A program made the position numbers and the translations under genes. This document shows positions 3,266-49,660 of a stretch of DNA of 64,000 nucleotides, in pieces. The notes under the pieces are model-generated. The model was not told the DNA's origin and searched no databases. It saw only the letters and a list, made by a program, of their open reading frames with translations. Origin of the DNA: Escherichia phage MN01; sequence record MT129652.1; one strand, written 5' to 3'. How positions within the stretch are numbered: the first letter of the stretch is position 1; the number at the start of each line of letters is the position of its first letter.

Positions 3266-5635
3266 TTATGGTGCTGGATTTAATGTCACGAATGTTGACA
3301 AAAGAACCCATGCATTATCAACGAGAACATACGGGAGACCATCATCCGCAGGAGCGACAGGAGGCCTTTTGGAGAGCTCTGTTTCTAAGGCTGATACTTT
3401 ACCTTCCAACGTAGTTATCTTCGTCTCGGCTGCAGTCAGGCGACCAGGAAGAGGAGTTACTGTACCTTCAAGAGTTGTCACACGAGTAGTTAACGGTGCA
3501 ATTTTTGCAGTATCCAATTTAATTGCAGTAATTTCATCTTCAACTGTTGCAACTCTTTCGTCTAGCGGTGCAATTTTTGCGGTATCGAGTTTAATCGTAG
3601 TGATTTCTCCTTCACTTGATGTAACTCTTTCGTCTAGCGGTGCAATTTTTGCAGTATCCAATTTAATTGCGGTAATTTCATCTTCAACTGTTGCAATTTT
3701 TGCAGTATCCAATTTAATCGCAGTGATTTCATCTTCAACTGTTGCAACACGCGTAGTTAATGGAGCAATTTTTGCAGTATCCAATTTAATTGCGGTAATT
3801 TCATTTTCACTTGATGTGACACGCGTAGTTAATGGAGCAATTTTTGCAGTATCCAATTTAATCGCAGTGATTTCTCCTTCCGCCGAAGTCATTCGACCGG
3901 TCAAGGTTACCAAACCACCTTTGTTTGTTTCGATATTTGCTTTAATGGTAACCAGCTCGCCCTCAACATTGCTAACGTCTAAAGCCAAAGCAGTGACATC
4001 ATCATCAGTCGCCGCTGTTTTGGTTTCCAGTGCGGTTATTTTACCGTCAACAGTCGTATCCTTCGTTTCTAATGCAGTGAGTCGACCATCTTGTTCTGTA
4101 TCTTTATTTTGCAGAGCAAGAACATCTGCCTTAACACCGGTGACGGAAGTATTCAGTGCACCATAACGAGTATCTAATGAACTAATTGCCGTATCATTAT
4201 CATCAACACGACCTGTTAATGTTGTTACGCGTCCATCGGTTGTTGCCAATGAAGCTTTAACCGCGTCAACTTCAGTTTTGGAATCGATAATTTCAGCCCA
4301 AGTTCCTTGCTTGCGGCCATATAACTTATTATCTAGTGGTGCGTCGTTCAGCTTGGACGCCATCATCATATCCAAGTTAATTACAACCGGGAGAACACCA
4401 CGTTCAGCCACAGTAGCACCGTTAGGGTTGGTTCCGTTCATCTGACTAGTTAAAGTCAAAATAGAGCCTTTCATACCGGTGGTATTTGTACCGATTTCGG
4501 CCTGTACATCCTGAAGACCCGATGCAGTTTCGTTAGCCAGCGTAGTGGTTGCATTCAACTTATACGTGATAGTGTTTGGCTCCGGAGATTGCTCTGTACC
4601 GATTCTCTGAGAAAGCCATGCAGTGGTTCCGCGTAAACCAGAGCTTGAATCCTGACCAACAACAACCTGTAAGCCATTAACATCCGTCCGCAAAGCACCA
4701 ATTCGACCATTAATTGTCAATGGCTCCAGCGCTGTTCCAATATCGGTTTCAACCTTCGTGAGTCTTGGTTTGATATCAGCAATATCTGTTTCATTGGCTA
4801 AAACACGTCCACCAAGATTTTCAACGCGGGTTGTAATTGCAATCCCTGTACCAAAACCAATAGCTTCTTGAATGTTGACAATATCTTCGTCAATTTCAAC
4901 TGCTTTATCATCAAGAGTATTCAGTCGAACAAATACAGCCGGTTTATCTGTTGCTAAAGTAGACTCACCTAATTCTTCACGAATTTTAATTACTTTTACG
5001 TTAAGAGAACCAACATCAGAATCATGATAGTTATCTTCAAGAGTCTTAATACGAACTCCATGCGCAACAATAGCCGAACTGTTATCGATGATGCGGCGTT
5101 TCATGCCTTTTGACGGATTTCCAATAACCTGAAGACCATTTATATCTTGGTCAACATACTGACCTAATTCATTTTTAATCCATACGAGGTCATTACGAAC
5201 TGTACGATAATATGAATCGGTTAACGGGTCATAAGCACCAACATCTTCCTTTAACTTTTTAAGACCTTCGGATGTTTCGCTTGATAGTAATTCGGTATTA
5301 AATTGACGTTCATCAAGGTCAAGAATATCCGTACGGTTTTTTTCAATTTGTTTAACAACTTCCGTGTTAGTTGTTATATCCAAAGCTTCCTGAATATTAT
5401 TGACGTTATCAATAATTTCGTTGATTTTTTCTTTAGATGCATTTGAGTTGTCGTCGAGTGTATCTACGTTTGTTTGAACGCCAACTGCAGCGGCGTTCAA
5501 ATTACCATCATGACCATATTTGGTACTGGCCGCAGTCATACAATCGCCGTTTTGTATCCAACGAATTCTCTGTTGACCTTCGTCTGGAATACCGATGCTA
5601 TACGGCAGTTCTTTGAGACTGAGTTTATTAATCAT
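3266..5635 (-). CDS. wac: fibritin (whisker/collar protein), expanded coiled-coil
   Basis: N-terminus LPYSIGIPDEGQQRIRWIQNG matches T4 fibritin N-domain; C-terminal foldon-like LPYVLVDNAWVLLSTF; about 790 aa versus 487 in T4; start set at the Met following the gene 12 stop with an AGGA Shine-Dalgarno. Confidence 0.88.
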   Translation of the reverse strand: MINKLSLKELPYSIGIPDEGQQRIRWIQNGDCMTAASTKYGHDGNLNAAAVGVQTNVDTLDDNSNASKEKINEIIDNVNNIQEALDITTNTEVVKQIEKNRTDILDLDERQFNTELLSSETSEGLKKLKEDVGAYDPLTDSYYRTVRNDLVWIKNELGQYVDQDINGLQVIGNPSKGMKRRIIDNSSAIVAHGVRIKTLEDNYHDSDVGSLNVKVIKIREELGESTLATDKPAVFVRLNTLDDKAVEIDEDIVNIQEAIGFGTGIAITTRVENLGGRVLANETDIADIKPRLTKVETDIGTALEPLTINGRIGALRTDVNGLQVVVGQDSSSGLRGTTAWLSQRIGTEQSPEPNTITYKLNATTTLANETASGLQDVQAEIGTNTTGMKGSILTLTSQMNGTNPNGATVAERGVLPVVINLDMMMASKLNDAPLDNKLYGRKQGTWAEIIDSKTEVDAVKASLATTDGRVTTLTGRVDDNDTAISSLDTRYGALNTSVTGVKADVLALQNKDTEQDGRLTALETKDTTVDGKITALETKTAATDDDVTALALDVSNVEGELVTIKANIETNKGGLVTLTGRMTSAEGEITAIKLDTAKIAPLTTRVTSSENEITAIKLDTAKIAPLTTRVATVEDEITAIKLDTAKIATVEDEITAIKLDTAKIAPLDERVTSSEGEITTIKLDTAKIAPLDERVATVEDEITAIKLDTAKIAPLTTRVTTLEGTVTPLPGRLTAAETKITTLEGKVSALETELSKRPPVAPADDGLPYVLVDNAWVLLSTFVTLNPAP
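3470..3880 (-). repeat. tandem 72-bp (24-aa) coding repeat array inside wac
   Basis: six near-identical units EITAIKLDTAKIAPLTTRV(T/A)xx (one truncated to 17 aa) visible in both the protein and the nucleotide sequence. Confidence 0.85.
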
Positions 5636-36526: not shown

Positions 36527-37018
36527 ATGAATATATTCGAAATGTTACGCATAGATGAAGGTTGTAAGTTGGATTTGTATAAAGATACTGAAGGCTATTG
36601 GACCATTGGTATCGGGCAACTGATAACTAAGAACCCATCAAAAGATGTTGCTCGTGCCGAGCTCGACAAACTCATGGGTCGCGTCTGTAATGGTCGCATA
36701 ACCCAGCACGAAGCTGAAACATTGTTTAACCGTTCGGTCGAAAAAGCTAAAGCCGGAATCTTGAGACACCCTGTCTTAAAACCTGTTTATGATGTGCTAG
36801 ATGAAGTTCGTCGTTGTGCACTCATTAATATGGTATTCCAGATGGGTGTTGCTGGTGTTGCTGGTTTTCCTAAGGGTATGCGACTTCTGAAGTCTAAATC
36901 ATGGGAAGCAGCTGCTAAGGAACTGGCGGACTCAAGATGGTATAAAGTCCAGACTCCGAACCGAGCCAAACGAGTTATAGAAACGTTCCGTACTGGAACT
37001 TTTAGCGCATACAAATAA
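36527..37018 (+). CDS. e: endolysin (T4 lysozyme e)
   Basis: 163 aa; [23 protein letters not shown] nearly identical to the T4 lysozyme N-terminus including catalytic E11/D20 context. Confidence 0.95.
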
Positions 37019-37026
37019 GGTAAAAT

Positions 37027-37329
37027 ATGAAAACGTATAAAGAATTTATCACCGAAGCGCGCGTAAGTGCAGGTAAATTAGAAGCCGCTGTAAATAAAAA
37101 GGCCCATTCATTTCATGATTTACCAGATAAAGACCGTAAGAAACTTGTAAGCCTTTATATTGACAAAGAGCGTATTCTAGCTCTCCCTGGCGCTAACGAA
37201 GGTAAACAGGCCAAGCCTTTGAATTCTGTCGAAAAGAAAATTGATAACTTTGCTTCTAAGTTCGGCATGTCTATGGATGACCTTCAGCAAGCGGCTATCG
37301 AAGCAGCTAAAGCAATTAAAGGTAAATAA
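37027..37329 (+). CDS. ipII: internal protein II-like (CTS-bearing)
   Basis: 100 aa; [40 protein letters not shown] matches remembered T4 IPII. Confidence 0.75.
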
Positions 37330-37805: not shown

Positions 37806-37853
37806 CTACAAAGGTTGTATAATGATTTTATCAACCAAACAATGGAATATAAA

Positions 37854-38153
37854 ATGAAAACTTATCAAGAATTTATTACTGAAGCCAAAGCTCCTAAAGC
37901 ATTTCAAATTGGGGTTCAGGGTAATTTAGACCAACAATATGTTGATGCTATTGTAGCAAGCCTCGGTAAACAGGGTGTACAAGTGGATTTGGTTGATTTT
38001 ACTAAAGGTAATACTTTTAATATTGTTACATCTAAAGGTTCTTTAGCTAAAGTTAAAAAGGCCTTTGGTGTAGCACAAGCATACGAAATCGACCATTCTG
38101 AATTAGAAAATAAAGGTCGCCAGAACACAATTAAAGGTTCTGGTTCTTTCTAA
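37854..38153 (+). CDS. internal-protein-like protein (CTS-bearing; ipIII position)
   Basis: start moved to MKTYQEFITEAKAPKAFQ. Confidence 0.6.
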   Translation: MKTYQEFITEAKAPKAFQIGVQGNLDQQYVDAIVASLGKQGVQVDLVDFTKGNTFNIVTSKGSLAKVKKAFGVAQAYEIDHSELENKGRQNTIKGSGSF

Positions 38154-46106: not shown

Positions 46107-47113
46107 GAACAGTTATGAAAGGCTACTTCGGTAGCCATCTTTATGGGACAAGTACTCCGGAATCTGATGTCGATTTTAAAGAAATCTTTGTTCCTCATCC
46201 GCGAGATATCCTGCTCGGAACCGCGATGAACCATACCAACCTGAACACAAATAACACGGCTACCAAAAATACAAAAGATGATGTTGACCATGAACTTTAT
46301 AGCCTGAAATATTTCTTTAAACTGGCAGCCGAAGGTGAAACCGTTGCCCTGGATATGATTCACACACCGGCTGACCTGGTAGTCAAATCCGATTTACCAG
46401 ATGTATGGAAGTTTATTCAAGACAACCGTTCGCGGTTCTATACAACTAACATGAAAGCCTATTTGGGGTATGTCCGTAAGCAAGCTTCCAAATATGGTGT
46501 TAAAGGTTCTCGATTGGCTGCACTGCGTGGTGTACTGGCAATCGTTAACCAGATTCCTGAACAGTGGGTCGACTATCAAGAAGGAATCCCTGATAAACTT
46601 CGTCGTACTAAGGTAGAAGATATCAAACATCGACTTCCTGAAAACGAGTTCTGTGAATGGGTATTCCATAACCATGAGAAAACAGGTCCTCAAACGTTCT
46701 ATACTGTCCTCGGACGTAAGTACCAAACTACTCTGTCATTGGTCGAGCTTAAGCAATCTCTGAATAAACTTGATGCCGAATATGGCGAACGTGCTCGTAA
46801 GGCTGAAGCTAATGAAGGTATTGACTGGAAAGCACTGAGCCATGCATATCGTGCAGGGTATCAATTGATGGAAATCTACCAAACAGGTGACTTGGTATTC
46901 CCATTGCGTGAAGCCTCTATCATTAAGCTGATTAAAGCTGGTGAATTACCATTTAAAGAAGTTCAAGAACTTCTTGAAGATACTGTCGATTTAGTTGAAG
47001 TTCTGGCCATCCAGGCTGCTAAGAATGGTATGCCTGCGAAGGTGGACATGAAGTTCTGGGACAAGTTTGTTGAAGAGGTATACCTTGACAACCACAATTC
47101 CTATTATCGTTAA
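46103..47113 (+). CDS. pol-beta superfamily nucleotidyltransferase, hypothetical
   Basis: N-terminal GSHLYGTSTPESDVDF is the canonical hG[GS]x9-13Dh[DE]h nucleotidyltransferase signature; 336 aa with helical C-terminal domain. Confidence 0.6.
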   Translation: MRTVMKGYFGSHLYGTSTPESDVDFKEIFVPHPRDILLGTAMNHTNLNTNNTATKNTKDDVDHELYSLKYFFKLAAEGETVALDMIHTPADLVVKSDLPDVWKFIQDNRSRFYTTNMKAYLGYVRKQASKYGVKGSRLAALRGVLAIVNQIPEQWVDYQEGIPDKLRRTKVEDIKHRLPENEFCEWVFHNHEKTGPQTFYTVLGRKYQTTLSLVELKQSLNKLDAEYGERARKAEANEGIDWKALSHAYRAGYQLMEIYQTGDLVFPLREASIIKLIKAGELPFKEVQELLEDTVDLVEVLAIQAAKNGMPAKVDMKFWDKFVEEVYLDNHNSYYR

Positions 47114-47308
47114 CAAAGAAATCAAGGTCTTCTTATCATACGGAAGACCTCATAAAGGCCGCCGATGGTATCTCGAAGCAGTCTGTCGAGAAACTGGTCG
47201 TCGAATCAATATCAAGTACACATGCAAACCAACACCCAAGCAAACTCGCAGGTTTGCTAATTGGGCTATCAATAATATCAGATTCCATAATTTTTGGAGT
47301 GCAATCTA

Positions 47309-47335
47309 AGGACCCTTCGGGGTCCTTTTTTATTT
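47309..47335 (+). terminator. rho-independent terminator
   Basis: AAGGACCC-TTCG-GGGTCCTT plus T-run. Confidence 0.65.
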
Positions 47336-47393
47336 TAAAGGTGTACAAACTTGTCTCTGTTGATGCATAATGAATTTTTACTAAGGAGCCATT

Positions 47394-47570
47394 ATGAATC
47401 ATATGAGACCTCGCGTATCCAAACAAACGCGAGAAGAAGCGATTGAACATTTTAAACGCCATCATGGAAGTCAATCATGCGAGGTGATTGTTGGTATCGA
47501 CATAGAAAAGATGAAGGAAACTGCCAAGCACTACCAGGGCAGGATTGATATTAAAAATTATATAAAGTAG
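47394..47570 (+). CDS. small basic protein, hypothetical (58 aa, below ORF-track cutoff)
   Basis: ATG preceded by AAGGAG Shine-Dalgarno and GTGTAC..CATAAT promoter; read by eye. Confidence 0.4.
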   Translation: MNHMRPRVSKQTREEAIEHFKRHHGSQSCEVIVGIDIEKMKETAKHYQGRIDIKNYIK

Positions 47571-47639
47571 TGTACATCAGTATGGGGATAGACGTATAAT
47601 GTTCCCATACTGAGTTACCAAATAAAAACGGAGAATAAA
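47570..47639 (+). repeat. promoter/leader cassette, direct repeat copy A
   Basis: GTGTACAT..TATGGGGATAGACGTATAATGTTCCCATACTGAGTTACCAAATA..GGAGAATAAA; near-identical to the copy at 48158. Confidence 0.8.
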
Positions 47640-47846
47640 ATGTTAGAATTAATCAAAGCTGCTGGTGAAAAAGGTCTGATGGTTAACACTCGTGACCCTG
47701 AACAACGTCAAGCATTTGGTGAGTTAAAAGCTAAAGGTCTGGTTAAAGCATCCCTTGGTATTGGTAATGCTTTGCGTGTGACTTTGACCCCTGCTGGTAA
47801 AGCAATGTTCTTCCCTAAACCATTACCAAAACGTCGTCGCAAGTGA
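47640..47846 (+). CDS. small protein with basic C-terminal tail, hypothetical
   Basis: 68 aa; C-terminal KPLPKRRRK. Confidence 0.45.
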   Translation: MLELIKAAGEKGLMVNTRDPEQRQAFGELKAKGLVKASLGIGNALRVTLTPAGKAMFFPKPLPKRRRK

Positions 47847-47852
47847 GGAATT

Positions 47853-48155
47853 ATGAAAAAGTATGAACTTGACATGATTGACGCATGTCTGAAATCTGCT
47901 GACCATTTTAAGTTGAAAATGCACAAGTTAAGAGGAATGGTCAAAACTCCAGAAGAGAAGAAGCGTTATGCTCTGAAGGAGAAATGTAAAGCTCTTATCA
48001 TGATGGATAAGATGCAAATGGTCGCCGCAGAAGCTCACAGAACACGTAAAGCTGAGGCCCTTGGTGTTTATATGGCGGAGCAGCTCCATCGCGCCCAGCA
48101 AGCCGTTAAGAGCGTCTGGTTCAGCGGTGAAAATACTGAAAGAACTTTTAATTAA
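47853..48155 (+). CDS. hypothetical protein
   Basis: 100 aa; AGGAA Shine-Dalgarno. Confidence 0.45.
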   Translation: MKKYELDMIDACLKSADHFKLKMHKLRGMVKTPEEKKRYALKEKCKALIMMDKMQMVAAEAHRTRKAEALGVYMAEQLHRAQQAVKSVWFSGENTERTFN

Positions 48156-48157
48156 AT

Positions 48158-48223
48158 GTGTACATAGTATGGGGATAGACGTATAATGTTCCCATACTGA
48201 GTTACCAAATACTGGAGAATAAA
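48158..48223 (+). repeat. promoter/leader cassette, direct repeat copy B
   Basis: about 90 percent identical to copy A. Confidence 0.8.
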
Positions 48224-48748
48224 ATGGAAGCCAAATCAATCTTTAATCTGATTAATTACAATAATGGTAATTTTAAATCAGAAGCACAAAGCAAGTTCTT
48301 TAATGATGTTGCTTGTGCAGGTGAGATTACAGTATCAGGTGGCCAAACTTATAAAAACGCCTGGAACTGGATTGTGACTGTTGATTCAGTTGGTATTGTT
48401 GATGTGTATAAAAACACCAATAAAAACCGCTCTTTGTTCTGGTCAAGAGAGACTAATGCTGAGTATCAGGCAACAAGAGCAAAGAAAAATATGCCTACTG
48501 AATCTGATGTACAAAACATCAAATCAGATATCCAGTATTATGATGGTCTGATTGCTGAACAACAAGCGGTGCTTGATAAGTTCAATGAAATCAAAGCATG
48601 CAAAGAAATTCCTGAATTCATGCGGGAATCAGTTAATGAACAATACAATCTCACTTCAGAGCGTATTGAAACCTATACCAAACAAAGAGCAGAGCGCCAG
48701 GTACTCCTTCAGAAGTTTGAAGAGCGTTTAAAGACGGTTCTCGCATAA
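48224..48748 (+). CDS. hypothetical protein
   Basis: 174 aa ORF behind a promoter cassette. Confidence 0.5.
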   Translation: MEAKSIFNLINYNNGNFKSEAQSKFFNDVACAGEITVSGGQTYKNAWNWIVTVDSVGIVDVYKNTNKNRSLFWSRETNAEYQATRAKKNMPTESDVQNIKSDIQYYDGLIAEQQAVLDKFNEIKACKEIPEFMRESVNEQYNLTSERIETYTKQRAERQVLLQKFEERLKTVLA

Positions 48749-48811
48749 ACGCTTTATACCAAGGATGGTATAATGGTTCTGACCTTTGATTAATCTATTG
48801 AGGAAATTATT

Positions 48812-49660
48812 ATGTCACAAGCAATTAATGAAATTCGTTCTGAAGTTAAAAAAGCTATTAAATTTGGTCGTATTCCAAGCACCAAAGATGTGGTTTTAAA
48901 TGTTCTATATATGATGTGGAATAAGTTCAATGTTTGTACTAATTCCGCTGAATTCACTAAAATCTTTGAAAAGACCACTGGCCTTCTTACATTAGAAGAC
49001 CGAGTCATGAAAACTCTTCATCGTTCAGGTATGTTGTCTCGTGCTAATGCCAAAATTTTACTTAAAAATTATAACAAAGGCTATGACCTTTATGGTCGTG
49101 CGATTAGCACCATGACGTTTGATGAAGTGGTTAAAGACCTTTGGAAAAACCAGCGTCGTTTACTGGCATTAGGTGCTCGTTTAGCAAGCGGTCAAGATAA
49201 ACAAATGACCTTTAAAACCAATAATTCTTTAGATTATAAACTATTTAATGTTATTAAAGGTCAAAAAGAAGGCGAATACAGTATTTCTTCTTTTAGTGGC
49301 TGCCAATATGATAATTGGAAGTTCCATCTTCGTTTAGCATTGTCTGAACTGGAATGCCAGGGTGTTCTTACCTTTTATGATGTTCAAACTGGAGGTGTCC
49401 AGCGTATTAAATTATGTCAAATTAAAGACCAAGTTGAAGTCGAGAGCCCCATTGAACAAGCTCCTAAAATGGAACCTGTTCCAGTGCGAAGCAATGAAAA
49501 ATATTCAGAGCAAATTGAGCTTTTCACTAAACAGATTGAAGAGCTTAATATCACCATCCAGCAACAAGATGATGAAATTTTCCGTCTGGCGGGACTGAAT
49601 AACGCGGCGAAAGCCGAACGTCAGAAACTGATGAACGTTATTGAATTGCTTAAGGATTAA
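48812..49660 (+). CDS. hypothetical protein with C-terminal coiled coil
   Basis: 282 aa; GAGGAAA Shine-Dalgarno; TATAAT-type promoter upstream. Confidence 0.5.
   Translation: MSQAINEIRSEVKKAIKFGRIPSTKDVVLNVLYMMWNKFNVCTNSAEFTKIFEKTTGLLTLEDRVMKTLHRSGMLSRANAKILLKNYNKGYDLYGRAISTMTFDEVVKDLWKNQRRLLALGARLASGQDKQMTFKTNNSLDYKLFNVIKGQKEGEYSISSFSGCQYDNWKFHLRLALSELECQGVLTFYDVQTGGVQRIKLCQIKDQVEVESPIEQAPKMEPVPVRSNEKYSEQIELFTKQIEELNITIQQQDDEIFRLAGLNNAAKAERQKLMNVIELLKD

What the first reader, a model, noticed from the sequence alone, without database searches (positions are those of the whole stretch)
47570..48223. Two-gene cassette bracketed by near-identical 66-70 bp direct repeats
The promoter/leader element upstream of 47640 is repeated almost exactly about 590 bp downstream, upstream of 48224. 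The repeats flank two small genes (47640-47846 and 47853-48155). Such direct repeats allow precise deletion or duplication of the intervening cassette by homologous recombination, so this is a likely currently mobile module.
Basis: seen in the sequence. Interest (0 to 1): 0.45.

Follow-up and report, generated by a model that had tools for sequence, protein, structure and literature searches.

The report
Repeated early-promoter cassettes (PeSLs) in T4-like phage
The two near-identical repeats are copies of a phage early promoter plus leader, a known "PeSL" element scattered through this T4-like genome; one copy arrived with a small inserted gene just upstream, so this is an ordinary but clear example of how such phages shuffle accessory genes.

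Summary
A 46-nt exact direct repeat (47579-47624 / 48166-48211) extends to 68 matches in 74 aligned columns from the -35 box to the ATG. It flanks two small genes: a 68-aa ORF and nrdC.9.

The window comes from a Gaprivervirus, an SP18/VR7-like T4-type coliphage, in its nrdC accessory region. Each repeat is a complete early expression cassette:
- an AT-rich tract
- GTGTACA, a 17/18-nt spacer and TATAAT
- a 13-14 bp hairpin overlapping the -10 box
- the conserved leader CCCATACTGAGTTACCAAATA
- GGAG and the ATG

About 18 related elements lie on the same strand of the window. They match the published PeSL elements (Arbiol 2010; Comeau 2014), including the hairpin over the -10.

The "mobile cassette" reading is only partly right. 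All 33 related GenBank records and one metagenome contig keep the two genes, and no deletion junction was found. In 28 records the upstream promoter has a different spacer. Only SP18, VR26 and this window carry the nrdC.8-type copy there, and only they carry an extra 58-aa ORF just upstream. That ORF with its bounding elements is SP18-like, while its flanks are not. So the module that moved is the 58-aa ORF, and the repeat is its footprint. This is a new member of a known kind.

The parts
47308..47333 (+). Intrinsic-terminator-like hairpin (AAGGACCC-TTCG-GGGTCCTT) followed by a T-run. It ends the nrdC.11/DUF7279 transcription unit and is the left border of the variable slot.
   Evidence: Terminator scan and RNA fold. 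It is conserved at both empty and occupied sites.
47341..47371 (+). Promoter-like element of the 58-aa ORF: GTGTACA, 18 nt, CATAAT. This is the left PeSL of the inserted module.
   Evidence: Profile hit 47332-47413, E = 6e-6.
47394..47570 (+). 58-aa ORF (phrog_12120, function unknown). This is the inserted, horizontally exchanged ORFan. Its stop codon TAG overlaps the first G of the -35 heptamer of copy 1.
   Evidence: ORF list and PHROG match at E = 8e-32. Among the genus it occurs only in SP18 and VR26; the next-best homologs are 71% identical, in unrelated 45-48 kb phages. It is 99% identical to SP18 while the flanks are only 82-93%.
47570..47639 (+). Repeat copy 1, a PeSL-type early promoter plus leader. 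-35 GTGTACA at 47570-47576; -10 TATAAT at 47595-47600; inferred transcription start near A47607; conserved leader CCCATACTGAGTTACCAAATA; Shine-Dalgarno GGAG at 47630-47633.
47577..47613 (+). Hairpin in copy 1: a 14-bp stem (arms 47577-47590 and 47600-47613) with a 9-nt loop, overlapping the -10 box.
   Evidence: RNA fold gives -22.5 kcal/mol, z = -4.0, and 0 of 200 shuffles fold as well. Inverted repeat I8.
47640..47846 (+). 68-aa gene (RB69ORF102c homolog, phrog_6001, function unknown). First gene of the flanked cassette.
   Evidence: Present in all 33 related records.
47853..48155 (+). nrdC.9 homolog (100 aa, DUF7203 / phrog_1931, function unknown). Second gene of the cassette, 6 nt after the previous stop codon.
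48158..48223 (+). Repeat copy 2, the resident PeSL-type early promoter plus leader of nrdC.8. -35 GTGTACA at 48158-48164; -10 TATAAT at 48182-48187; inferred transcription start near A48194; GGAG; ATG at 48224.
   Evidence: It is conserved at this position in the eight Gaprivervirus loci examined. T4 and RB69 have a promoter-like site at the same position.
48165..48199 (+). Hairpin in copy 2: a 13-bp stem (arms 48165-48177 and 48187-48199) with a 9-nt loop, overlapping the -10 box.
   Evidence: RNA fold gives -19.9 kcal/mol, z = -2.4.
48224..48748 (+). nrdC.8 homolog (174 aa, phrog_2274, function unknown). This is the gene served by copy 2.

Best explanation
The two repeats are neighbouring members of a dispersed family of early-gene expression cassettes, the promoter-early stem-loops or PeSLs, in a T4-type Gaprivervirus.

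Inferred function. Each element is read by the host sigma70 RNA polymerase soon after infection. Each supplies a ready-made 5' leader and ribosome-binding site to the small accessory gene or genes downstream: copy 1 to the 68-aa gene plus nrdC.9, and copy 2 to nrdC.8. Each also forms a hairpin over its -10 box in transcripts reading through from upstream.

Shown by comparison. Copy 2 is the resident, orthologous nrdC.8 promoter. Copy 1 is a second copy of that same promoter type. It replaced the ancestral, differently spaced promoter of the 68-aa gene when a module of promoter, 58-aa ORF and nrdC.8-type promoter was recombined into the slot between nrdC.11 and the 68-aa gene. The crossovers fell inside conserved PeSL segments: the terminator/AT-rich/-35 region on the left, and the CCATACTGAGTTACC leader on the right. 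That module has since been exchanged among Gaprivervirus lineages.

Inferred by analogy with RB49/phi1. The resulting 46-nt perfect homology, 587 bp apart, could let the phage recombination system loop out the 68-aa gene plus nrdC.9 as a 587-bp circle at low frequency. No such deletion is fixed in any sequenced relative.
For: Genome and region:
- The window matches SP18/VR7-group T4-type phages in the nrdC.11-nrdC.6 region.

Element anatomy:
- Hexamers TGTACA-N18/17-TATAAT score 10 of 12.
- AT-rich upstream tract and GGAG-N8-ATG.
- 13-14 bp hairpin over the -10 box, z = -4.0 and -2.4.

Family:
- About 18 same-strand members lie upstream of ORFs between 23 and 56 kb.
- The published PeSL definition has the same components. 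[quoted passage not shown]
- The T4/PST PeSL promoter consensus is TTTACW-N17-TAYWAT.

Derived nature of the identity:
- 28 of 33 related records carry a different copy 1 (GTGTACAACCAGATGGTCATGATGCATAATGATTCC), matching it at 94% or more over the full query. Only SP18 and VR26 deviate. PSD2001 is cut by the end of its record and is uninformative.
- SP18 and VR26 are also the only relatives with the 58-aa ORF.
- The longest exact run shared by the two copies is 46 nt in the window, 33 in SP18, 16 in VR26 and 13-20 in the others.

Insertion junctions:
- The empty and occupied sites align cleanly.
- UPEC07's single element aligns to both window elements.

Mosaic pattern:
- Window 47306-47639 is 96-99% identical to SP18.
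- The nrdC.11 3' half is 82% to SP18 but 96-97% to UPEC07 and RZ.
- The 68-aa gene is 93% to SP18 but 98% to VR26 and 99% to the other six.

Variable slot:
- The slot left of copy 1 has at least five states among relatives.

Precedent:
- Mini-circles of about 400-1400 bp form between tandem PeSLs in RB49/phi1, at roughly 1 per 100,000 virions for one species.
Against: - No promoter, terminator or recombination activity was measured here. Everything rests on sequence.
- A simple single-crossover integration of a one-PeSL mini-circle into a VR20-type resident promoter does not reproduce the observed pair, because both flanking elements carry non-ancestral spacers. A double crossover with an unknown donor has to be assumed, and no donor with the 58-aa ORF next to an nrdC.8-type promoter was found.
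- The three genomes carrying the module probably reflect one event, so the association with the 58-aa ORF is effectively n = 1.
- The hairpin has no following U-tract and was not called by the terminator scan. Its assumed attenuator role is therefore uncertain.
Confidence: 0.8

Rival explanations
1. The 68-aa gene plus nrdC.9 cassette is itself a currently mobile module, gained, lost or duplicated through recombination between its flanking repeats.
For: 46 nt of perfect homology and 92% identity over about 70 nt, in direct orientation 587 bp apart. T4-type recombination acts on short patches of homology (under 50 bp), and PeSL pairs produce mini-circles of similar size.
Against: The cassette is present in 33 of 33 related records and in one metagenome contig. 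No deletion junction appears in GenBank phages, IMG/VR or the metagenome scan. Both genes keep their ancestral order in RB69, and in the part of T4 that was read. In most relatives the two promoters share only 13-20 nt exact runs. The cassette is 93-99% identical across all relatives and shows no mosaic break at copy 2.
Confidence: 0.12
2. Intragenomic gene conversion. Copy 2 simply overwrote the old promoter of the 68-aa gene within one genome, independently of the 58-aa ORF insertion.
For: Dispersed PeSLs share enough homology to convert one another. Copy 1 and copy 2 are nearly identical in the window and in SP18.
Against: The nrdC.8-type copy 1 occurs only in the genomes that carry the 58-aa ORF, across the 32 informative records. 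In VR26, copy 1 keeps the VR7-like spacer (CATCAGTAT-GGGATAGACG) while VR26's own copy 2 has diverged (GGGAGCGTGACATAAT). The two copies are therefore not being homogenised within a genome. Copy 1 also travels with the SP18-like block.
Confidence: 0.08
3. The inverted repeat over the -10 box is a palindromic operator for a dimeric phage or host regulator, and the repeat identity reflects selection for that binding site.
For: The 9-14 bp inverted repeat is centred on the -10 box. Similar bracketing occurs in about 8 of 17 family members.
Against: The arm sequences differ between promoters (GTGTAGG, TGGGATA, GTGGGAC, TGGAAT, CAGTATGGG), which fits a structure rather than a sequence-specific site. 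Two orthologue variants keep pairing only as G-U on the sense strand. The ancestral promoter of the same gene has no such repeat, z = -0.4. Stem-loops overlapping the -10 box are already a described PeSL subclass.
Confidence: 0.04
4. The similarity is convergent and due only to functional constraint on strong early promoters. No copying event took place.
For: The -35, -10, leader and Shine-Dalgarno segments are conserved across the whole family.
Against: The 17-18 nt spacer is not conserved in the family. It is nevertheless identical between the two copies apart from one indel. Orthologous copy 1 in 28 records has a different spacer.
Confidence: 0.02

Closest known systems
PeSL (promoter-early stem-loop) regulatory cassettes of T4-type phages RB49/phi1, PST/T4 and nt-1/KVP40 (Arbiol et al. 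2010, PMC2839356; Comeau et al. 2014, PMC4122927)
   Same: - Same component order: upstream stop codon, AT-rich tract, sigma70-like -35 and -10 boxes, a stem-loop (here overlapping the -10, one of the two commonest published positions), then Shine-Dalgarno and ATG.
- Dispersed in many copies, upstream of small ORFs of unknown function in a hyperplastic region.
- Located at indel and replacement breakpoints between close relatives.
- Tandem pairs flank one or two ORFs at a spacing of a few hundred bp.
   Different: - A different genus (Gaprivervirus) with its own consensus: -35 GTGTACA rather than TTGACA (RB49) or TTTACW (T4/PST).
- A longer conserved transcribed leader (CCCATACTGAGTTACCAAATA, or TATCCCATCAACTACTGAGG).
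- The stem arms here are not G-tract/C-tract.
- No experimental data exist for this phage.
- The event reconstructed here fits a double crossover better than the published single mini-circle integration scheme.
Bacteriophage T4 early promoters
   Same: - Host sigma70-type promoters with an AT-rich upstream tract and a GTTTACA-like extended -35 box, placed before early accessory genes.
- T4 has GTTTACA-N17-TACTAT at the orthologous position upstream of nrdC.8.
   Different: - T4's orthologous element differs in its spacer and in the segment after the -10 box (ACAACTATCAACTACGGAGG).
- It lacks the 14-bp hairpin.
- The T4 RefSeq feature table for the stretch shown lists no promoter, so identity of function is inferred.
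Integron gene cassettes (attC / attI with an integrase)
   Same: Small promoter-proximal gene cassettes bounded by repeated structured elements that can loop out as circles.
   Different: No integrase or other recombinase lies in or next to the cassette. The repeats are promoters in direct orientation. They are not attC sites. Exchange would depend on general homologous recombination.

Membership tests
PeSL (promoter-early stem-loop) cassette | Sigma70-like -35 and -10 hexamers with a spacing of about 17 nt | tested here: met
   TGTACA-18-TATAAT and TGTACA-17-TATAAT, each matching 10 of 12 consensus positions. Consistent with the T4/PST PeSL consensus TTTACW-N17-TAYWAT.
PeSL (promoter-early stem-loop) cassette | AT-rich tract upstream of the -35 box, usually containing the stop codon of the upstream gene | tested here: met
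   Copy 1: attaaaaattatataaagTAG, where TAG is the stop codon of the 58-aa ORF. Copy 2: aacttttaatTAAat, where TAA is the stop codon of nrdC.9.
PeSL (promoter-early stem-loop) cassette | Stable stem-loop within or next to the promoter (five positional subclasses, including one overlapping the -10 box) | tested here: met
   14-bp and 13-bp stems overlapping the -10 box; -22.5 and -19.9 kcal/mol; z = -4.0 and -2.4. Definition taken.
PeSL (promoter-early stem-loop) cassette | Shine-Dalgarno sequence and start codon of the downstream gene at the 3' end | tested here: met
   GGAGAATAAAATG in both copies.
PeSL (promoter-early stem-loop) cassette | Many dispersed copies concentrated in hyperplastic regions, upstream of small ORFs of unknown function | tested here: met
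   About 18 profile hits, all on the + strand and upstream of ORFs, between 23 and 56 kb. The served genes have only DUF or PHROG 'unknown function' matches.
PeSL (promoter-early stem-loop) cassette | Located at insertion, deletion or replacement breakpoints between closely related phages | tested here: met
   Homology with relatives breaks at 47570 or at 47305-47373. Empty and occupied sites align. The mosaic block is bounded by the elements.
PeSL (promoter-early stem-loop) cassette | Demonstrated promoter activity, and terminator/attenuator activity of the stem-loop | not testable with these tools
   Requires reporter fusions or transcript mapping. The hairpin lacks a U-tract and is not called by the terminator scan.
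PeSL (promoter-early stem-loop) cassette | Formation of mini-circles or deletions by recombination between neighbouring elements | tested here: inconclusive
   No deletion junction was found in 33 GenBank records, 3 IMG/VR contigs or 1 metagenome contig. The published frequency is about 1 in 100,000 per virion, far below what genome surveys can detect.
Site-specific recombination cassette (integron-like or att-flanked element) | A recombinase or integrase gene associated with the repeats | tested here: not met
   The four ORFs from 47394 to 48748 have no recombinase domain. The neighbours are an RlaP-type nucleotidyltransferase and a DUF7279 protein.
Homing-endonuclease-driven mobile gene | A homing endonuclease gene inside or adjacent to the variable segment | tested here: not met
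   No Pfam hit for the 58-aa, 68-aa and nrdC.8 ORFs, only DUF7203 for nrdC.9, and only DUF7279 and RlaP for the neighbours. VR26 has mobD, but it lies upstream of nrdC.11.
Known structured RNA family (Rfam) | Match to a curated covariance model | tested here: not met
   Only two sub-threshold chance hits in 46500-49500, at 20.8 and 15.9 bits against gathering scores of 50 and 167.

The most novel reading that the evidence does not exclude
The nrdC.8-type element, with its unusually long 14-bp hairpin around the -10 box, may be more than passive homology. It could be a preferred recombination site, for example a cruciform or hairpin cut by the phage junction-resolving nuclease. That would let this promoter copy itself to new positions together with hitch-hiking ORFans. 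In this particular phage it would also generate packaged 587-bp circles carrying the 68-aa gene and nrdC.9 at a measurably higher rate than in relatives, whose promoters share only 13-20 nt.
Probability: 0.1. Interest if true: 0.55.

Novelty: new member of a known kind. Interest (0 to 1): 0.25.

Why it matters
This locus is a clean natural example of PeSL-mediated modular shuffling in a phage genus where I found no published description of it. About 27 sequenced relatives show the empty site, the occupied site, and the later lateral spread of the inserted module. The example supports the idea that conserved promoter/leader cassettes act as portable homology, letting T4-type phages gain and swap small accessory genes without disturbing neighbouring transcription units. 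It does not reveal a new mechanism. It also shows that a striking pair of direct repeats can be the scar of an insertion next door, and need not mark mobility of the DNA they enclose.

Tried and rejected
- Deletion variants. I built a synthetic junction (left flank, one repeat, nrdC.8) and searched the phage collection. No record holds it contiguously.
- Junction scans. A junction-specific pattern found 0 hits in IMG/VR, while the wild-type control found 3 contigs, which by length are VR20, VR25 and VR26. The single metagenome scan found one contig, and it has the cassette intact. Sampling outside GenBank is therefore too thin to be informative.
- Rfam. Only chance sub-threshold hits.
- Pfam and PHROGs on the four ORFs. 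Only families of unknown function, so gene content gives no mechanistic clue.
- The -10-bracketing hairpin as something new. It is significantly enriched: mean best stem 5.41 against 3.75 ± 0.21 for shuffled spacers, with 0 of 2000 shuffles reaching it. However, the 2010 PeSL paper already lists stem-loops overlapping the -10 box as a common subclass.
- The hairpin as an intrinsic terminator. Rejected, because there is no U-tract and the terminator scan does not call it.
- Single-crossover integration of a one-PeSL mini-circle into the VR20-type promoter. This does not reproduce both observed spacers, so a double crossover with an unknown donor is preferred.
- Donor search. A tblastn search with the 58-aa ORF found no phage in which it sits next to an nrdC.8-type promoter outside SP18 and VR26.
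- Literature on PeSLs or early promoters in VR7 or SP18. Nothing specific was found in the held library. One search call failed on term syntax.

Full report
**1. Observation**

The repeat finder reports an exact 46-nt direct repeat at 47579-47624 and 48166-48211, 587 nt apart. A 41-nt core occurs only at these two sites in the 64-kb window, with none expected by chance. Aligned from the -35 heptamer to the start codon, the two copies share 68 of 74 columns, or 92%. Copy 1 is 47570-47642 and copy 2 is 48158-48226. The ORFs are as described: 47640-47846 (68 aa), 47853-48155 (100 aa), and the next ORF from 48224.

**2. Genome context**

The region matches T4-type coliphages of the SP18/VR7 group, genus Gaprivervirus, at 89-96% identity. 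It corresponds to their nrdC.11 to nrdC.6 accessory region.

The local gene order in the window is:
- nrdC.11, an RlaP-type nucleotidyltransferase
- a DUF7279 ORF
- a terminator-like hairpin
- a 58-aa ORF (phrog_12120)
- repeat copy 1
- a 68-aa gene (RB69ORF102c homolog, phrog_6001)
- nrdC.9 (DUF7203)
- repeat copy 2
- nrdC.8 (phrog_2274)
- nrdC.6

None of the small genes has a known function.

**3. Anatomy of the repeat**

Each copy contains, in order:
- an AT-rich tract that holds the stop codon of the upstream gene
- the heptamer GTGTACA
- a spacer of 18 nt (copy 1) or 17 nt (copy 2)
- TATAAT, giving 10 of 12 matches to the sigma70 consensus
- the segment GTTCCCATACTGAGTTACCAAATA
- GGAG, eight bases, and ATG

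The spacer and the segment just after the -10 box are complementary. As RNA they fold into a 14-bp stem for copy 1 (-22.5 kcal/mol, z = -4.0) and a 13-bp stem for copy 2 (-19.9 kcal/mol, z = -2.4). The -10 box lies in the loop and the 3' arm. No Rfam family matches.

**4. A dispersed family, not a unique pair**

A profile built from the obvious copies finds about 18 members. All lie on the + strand between 23 and 56 kb, and each is immediately upstream of an ORF.

There are two leader classes:
- CCATACTGAGTTACCAAATA..GGAGAATAAAATG, with six copies near 27974, 28493, 28861, 29389, 47570 and 48158
- TATCCCATCAACTACTGAGG

A second pair, at about 28.5 and 29.4 kb, shares a long identical leader stretch. 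It flanks two ORFs at about 0.9 kb spacing.

In about 8 of 17 members the spacer pairs with the post-(-10) segment over at least 6 bp, using at least five different arm sequences. The mean best stem is 5.41, against 3.75 ± 0.21 for shuffled spacers, and none of 2000 shuffles reached it. Other members instead have a G-tract/C-tract hairpin around the -35 box.

**5. Comparison with the literature**

This matches the PeSL elements of Arbiol et al. 2010 and Comeau et al. 2014. Those papers describe an AT-rich tract, a sigma70-like early promoter, a stem-loop in one of five positions, and a Shine-Dalgarno sequence plus ATG. [quoted passage not shown] Those authors showed promoter and terminator activity for selected elements. 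They also detected 400-1400 bp mini-circles formed between neighbouring PeSLs, at roughly 1 per 100,000 virions for one species. PeSL-like sequences were mentioned for JS98. I found no description for the SP18/VR7 genus.

**6. Is the flanked cassette mobile?**

The comparative data say no, at least not visibly.
- All 33 related GenBank records (27 distinct phages) hold the whole 671-nt interval contiguously, at 92.6-96.9% identity.
- A synthetic deletion junction is not contiguous in any record.
- A junction-specific pattern is absent from IMG/VR, where the wild-type control finds only three contigs.
- The single metagenome hit also has the cassette.
- RB69 has ORF102c, nrdC.10, nrdC.9 and nrdC.8 in the same order. 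The T4 stretch that was read shows nrdC.9 next to nrdC.8. The two genes are therefore ancestral residents. Gaprivervirus has merely lost nrdC.10.

**7. What did move**

In the six no-ORF relatives examined locus by locus (VR7, VR20, UPEC01, RZ, UPEC07, pEC-M719), the promoter before the 68-aa gene has a different spacer and -10 box: GTGTACAACCAGATGGTCATGATGCATAATGATTCC. It has no significant hairpin, z = -0.4. The metagenome contig, which is cut just before that -10 box, shows the same -10 and leader. A search with that sequence shows it at 94% or more over the full query in 28 of 33 records. Only SP18 and VR26 deviate, and PSD2001 is cut by the end of its record. SP18 and VR26 are also the only relatives with the 58-aa ORF. 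The next-best homologs of that ORF are 71% identical in unrelated 45-48 kb phages and 52% in RB49/phi1-type phages.

Aligning empty and occupied sites gives:
- Empty: terminator-TTTTTTATTTTAA|AAAGTAGTGTACA-ancestral spacer-CATAATGATTCCATACTGAG
- Occupied: the same terminator, then GTGTACA with its own spacer and -10 box, a leader, the 58-aa ORF, and AAAGTAGTGTACA followed by the nrdC.8-type spacer and -10 box, rejoining at CCCATACTGAG

UPEC07's single element aligns to both window elements.

The longest exact run shared by the two promoters is 46 nt in the window, 33 in SP18, 16 in VR26 and 13-20 in the others. The high identity is therefore a derived state created by this insertion.

**8. Lateral spread of the module**

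Segment-wise identities are mosaic.

| Window segment | Identity to SP18 | Identity to other relatives |
|---|---|---|
| 47306-47639 (terminator, P58, 58-aa ORF, copy 1) | 96-99% | not conserved |
| nrdC.11 3' half | 82% | 96-97% (UPEC07, RZ) |
| 68-aa gene | 93% | 98% (VR26), 99% (the other six) |

The block from PeSL through the 58-aa ORF to PeSL has therefore been exchanged between lineages, with junctions at or near the elements.

VR26's copy 1 carries the VR7-type nrdC.8 spacer, while VR26's own copy 2 has diverged. This argues against within-genome homogenisation.

The slot left of copy 1 has at least five states among relatives:
- empty
- the DUF7279 ORF only
- two ORFs
- a reverse-strand gene with an Sf6-type tail-needle-knob domain
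- the 58-aa ORF

**9. Mechanism**

Shown:
- the anatomy of the elements
- their family membership
- the breakpoints
- the mosaicism

Inferred from established T4/PeSL biology:
- Each element is an early sigma70 promoter with a built-in leader and ribosome-binding site. Expected transcript starts are near A47607 and A48194.
- The hairpin forms only in read-through transcripts, because its 5' arm lies upstream of the element's own transcription start. It may attenuate or process those transcripts. It has no U-tract, so it is not a classical intrinsic terminator.
- The conserved segments provide homology for the phage recombination system.
- The observed arrangement fits a double crossover with a donor carrying the 58-aa ORF in front of an nrdC.8-type element. 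The left crossover would fall in the terminator/AT-rich/-35 segment, and the right crossover in the CCATACTGAGTTACC leader.
- A single mini-circle integration into the ancestral promoter does not reproduce both spacers.
- Recombination between the two copies would remove 587 bp, taking out the 68-aa gene and nrdC.9 and placing nrdC.8 directly after the 58-aa ORF. This is plausible at low frequency but has not been observed.

**10. Verdict**

The repeats are promoter/leader cassettes of a known recombinogenic class, but the enclosed cassette is a fixed ancestral gene pair. The mobile unit is the adjacent 58-aa ORF. This is a new member of a known kind. Interest is low to moderate, mainly as a well-documented natural example.

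Noticed in passing
window 23218-56032 (17 promoter-like elements, e.g. 23218, 24151, 28493, 28861, 34486): In about 8 of 17 early-promoter-like elements the spacer is complementary to the segment just after the -10 box, so the -10 sits in a hairpin. The arm sequences differ between promoters (GTGTAGG, TGGGATA, GTGGGAC, TGGAAT, CAGTATGGG). This is more than chance gives (0 of 2000 shuffles). Two orthologue variants keep pairing through G-U on the sense strand. The trait is a known PeSL subclass, but its function is still unexplained.
   Followed up: partly
window 28400-29467: A second PeSL pair, ending at the ATGs at 28563 and 29460, shares a long identical leader stretch. The 3' ends of the ORFs upstream of each element are also about 97% identical over 31 nt (28439-28469 / 29332-29362). 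Those two ORFs are paralogues that share a C-terminal ...SVQSYASNFRK motif. This suggests a duplicated module of gene 3' end plus PeSL.
   Followed up: partly
L006 2208-2954 (- strand; phage RZ), also pEC-M719-6WT.2 and, by its annotation, Yersinia phage P8: In some relatives the variable slot between nrdC.11 and the 68-aa gene holds a reverse-strand 248-aa gene with an Sf6-type tail-needle-knob domain (Pfam PF16532, E = 3e-32). This is an unexpected structural-type domain in an early accessory region of a T4-like phage.
   Followed up: partly
window 47846-47853 compared with L010 (RB69) 3710-4770 and L002 (IME281): Gapriverviruses lack nrdC.10, which lies between ORF102c and nrdC.9 in RB69 and upstream of the nrdC.9-like gene in the Dhakavirus IME281. 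IME281 in turn shows no ORF102c homolog in its annotated gene list. In Gaprivervirus the junction sits at the conserved TGAGGAA(A)TTATG ribosome-binding site of nrdC.9.
   Followed up: partly
window 23611-24572, 37014-37056 and 37841-37910: Six small ORFs begin with nearly the same coding sequence, ATGAAAAC(T/G)TATCAAGAATTTAT(T/C)A(A/C)CGAAGC (families D3 and D5). They form a paralogous family of small early genes with a shared N-terminus, and several are preceded by PeSL-type elements.
   Followed up: no
window 26241-26393: Two adjacent tRNA genes on the + strand, tRNA-Met (CAT) and tRNA-Arg (TCT). They first appeared as a 58-nt direct repeat (family D12).
   Followed up: yes
window 3455-3888: Six copies of a roughly 72-nt (51-72 nt spacing) imperfect tandem repeat, 66-82% identical (family D1). 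It probably encodes a repeated peptide module in a structural gene.
   Followed up: no
window 47630-47642, 48214-48226 and other leader-A elements: The conserved Shine-Dalgarno context GGAGAATAAAATG contains GGAG. From my own recollection, not checked here, this tetranucleotide in early-gene ribosome-binding sites is the target of the T4 RegB endoribonuclease. Early mRNAs from these cassettes may therefore be RegB-sensitive. I did not check whether this phage encodes regB.
   Followed up: no
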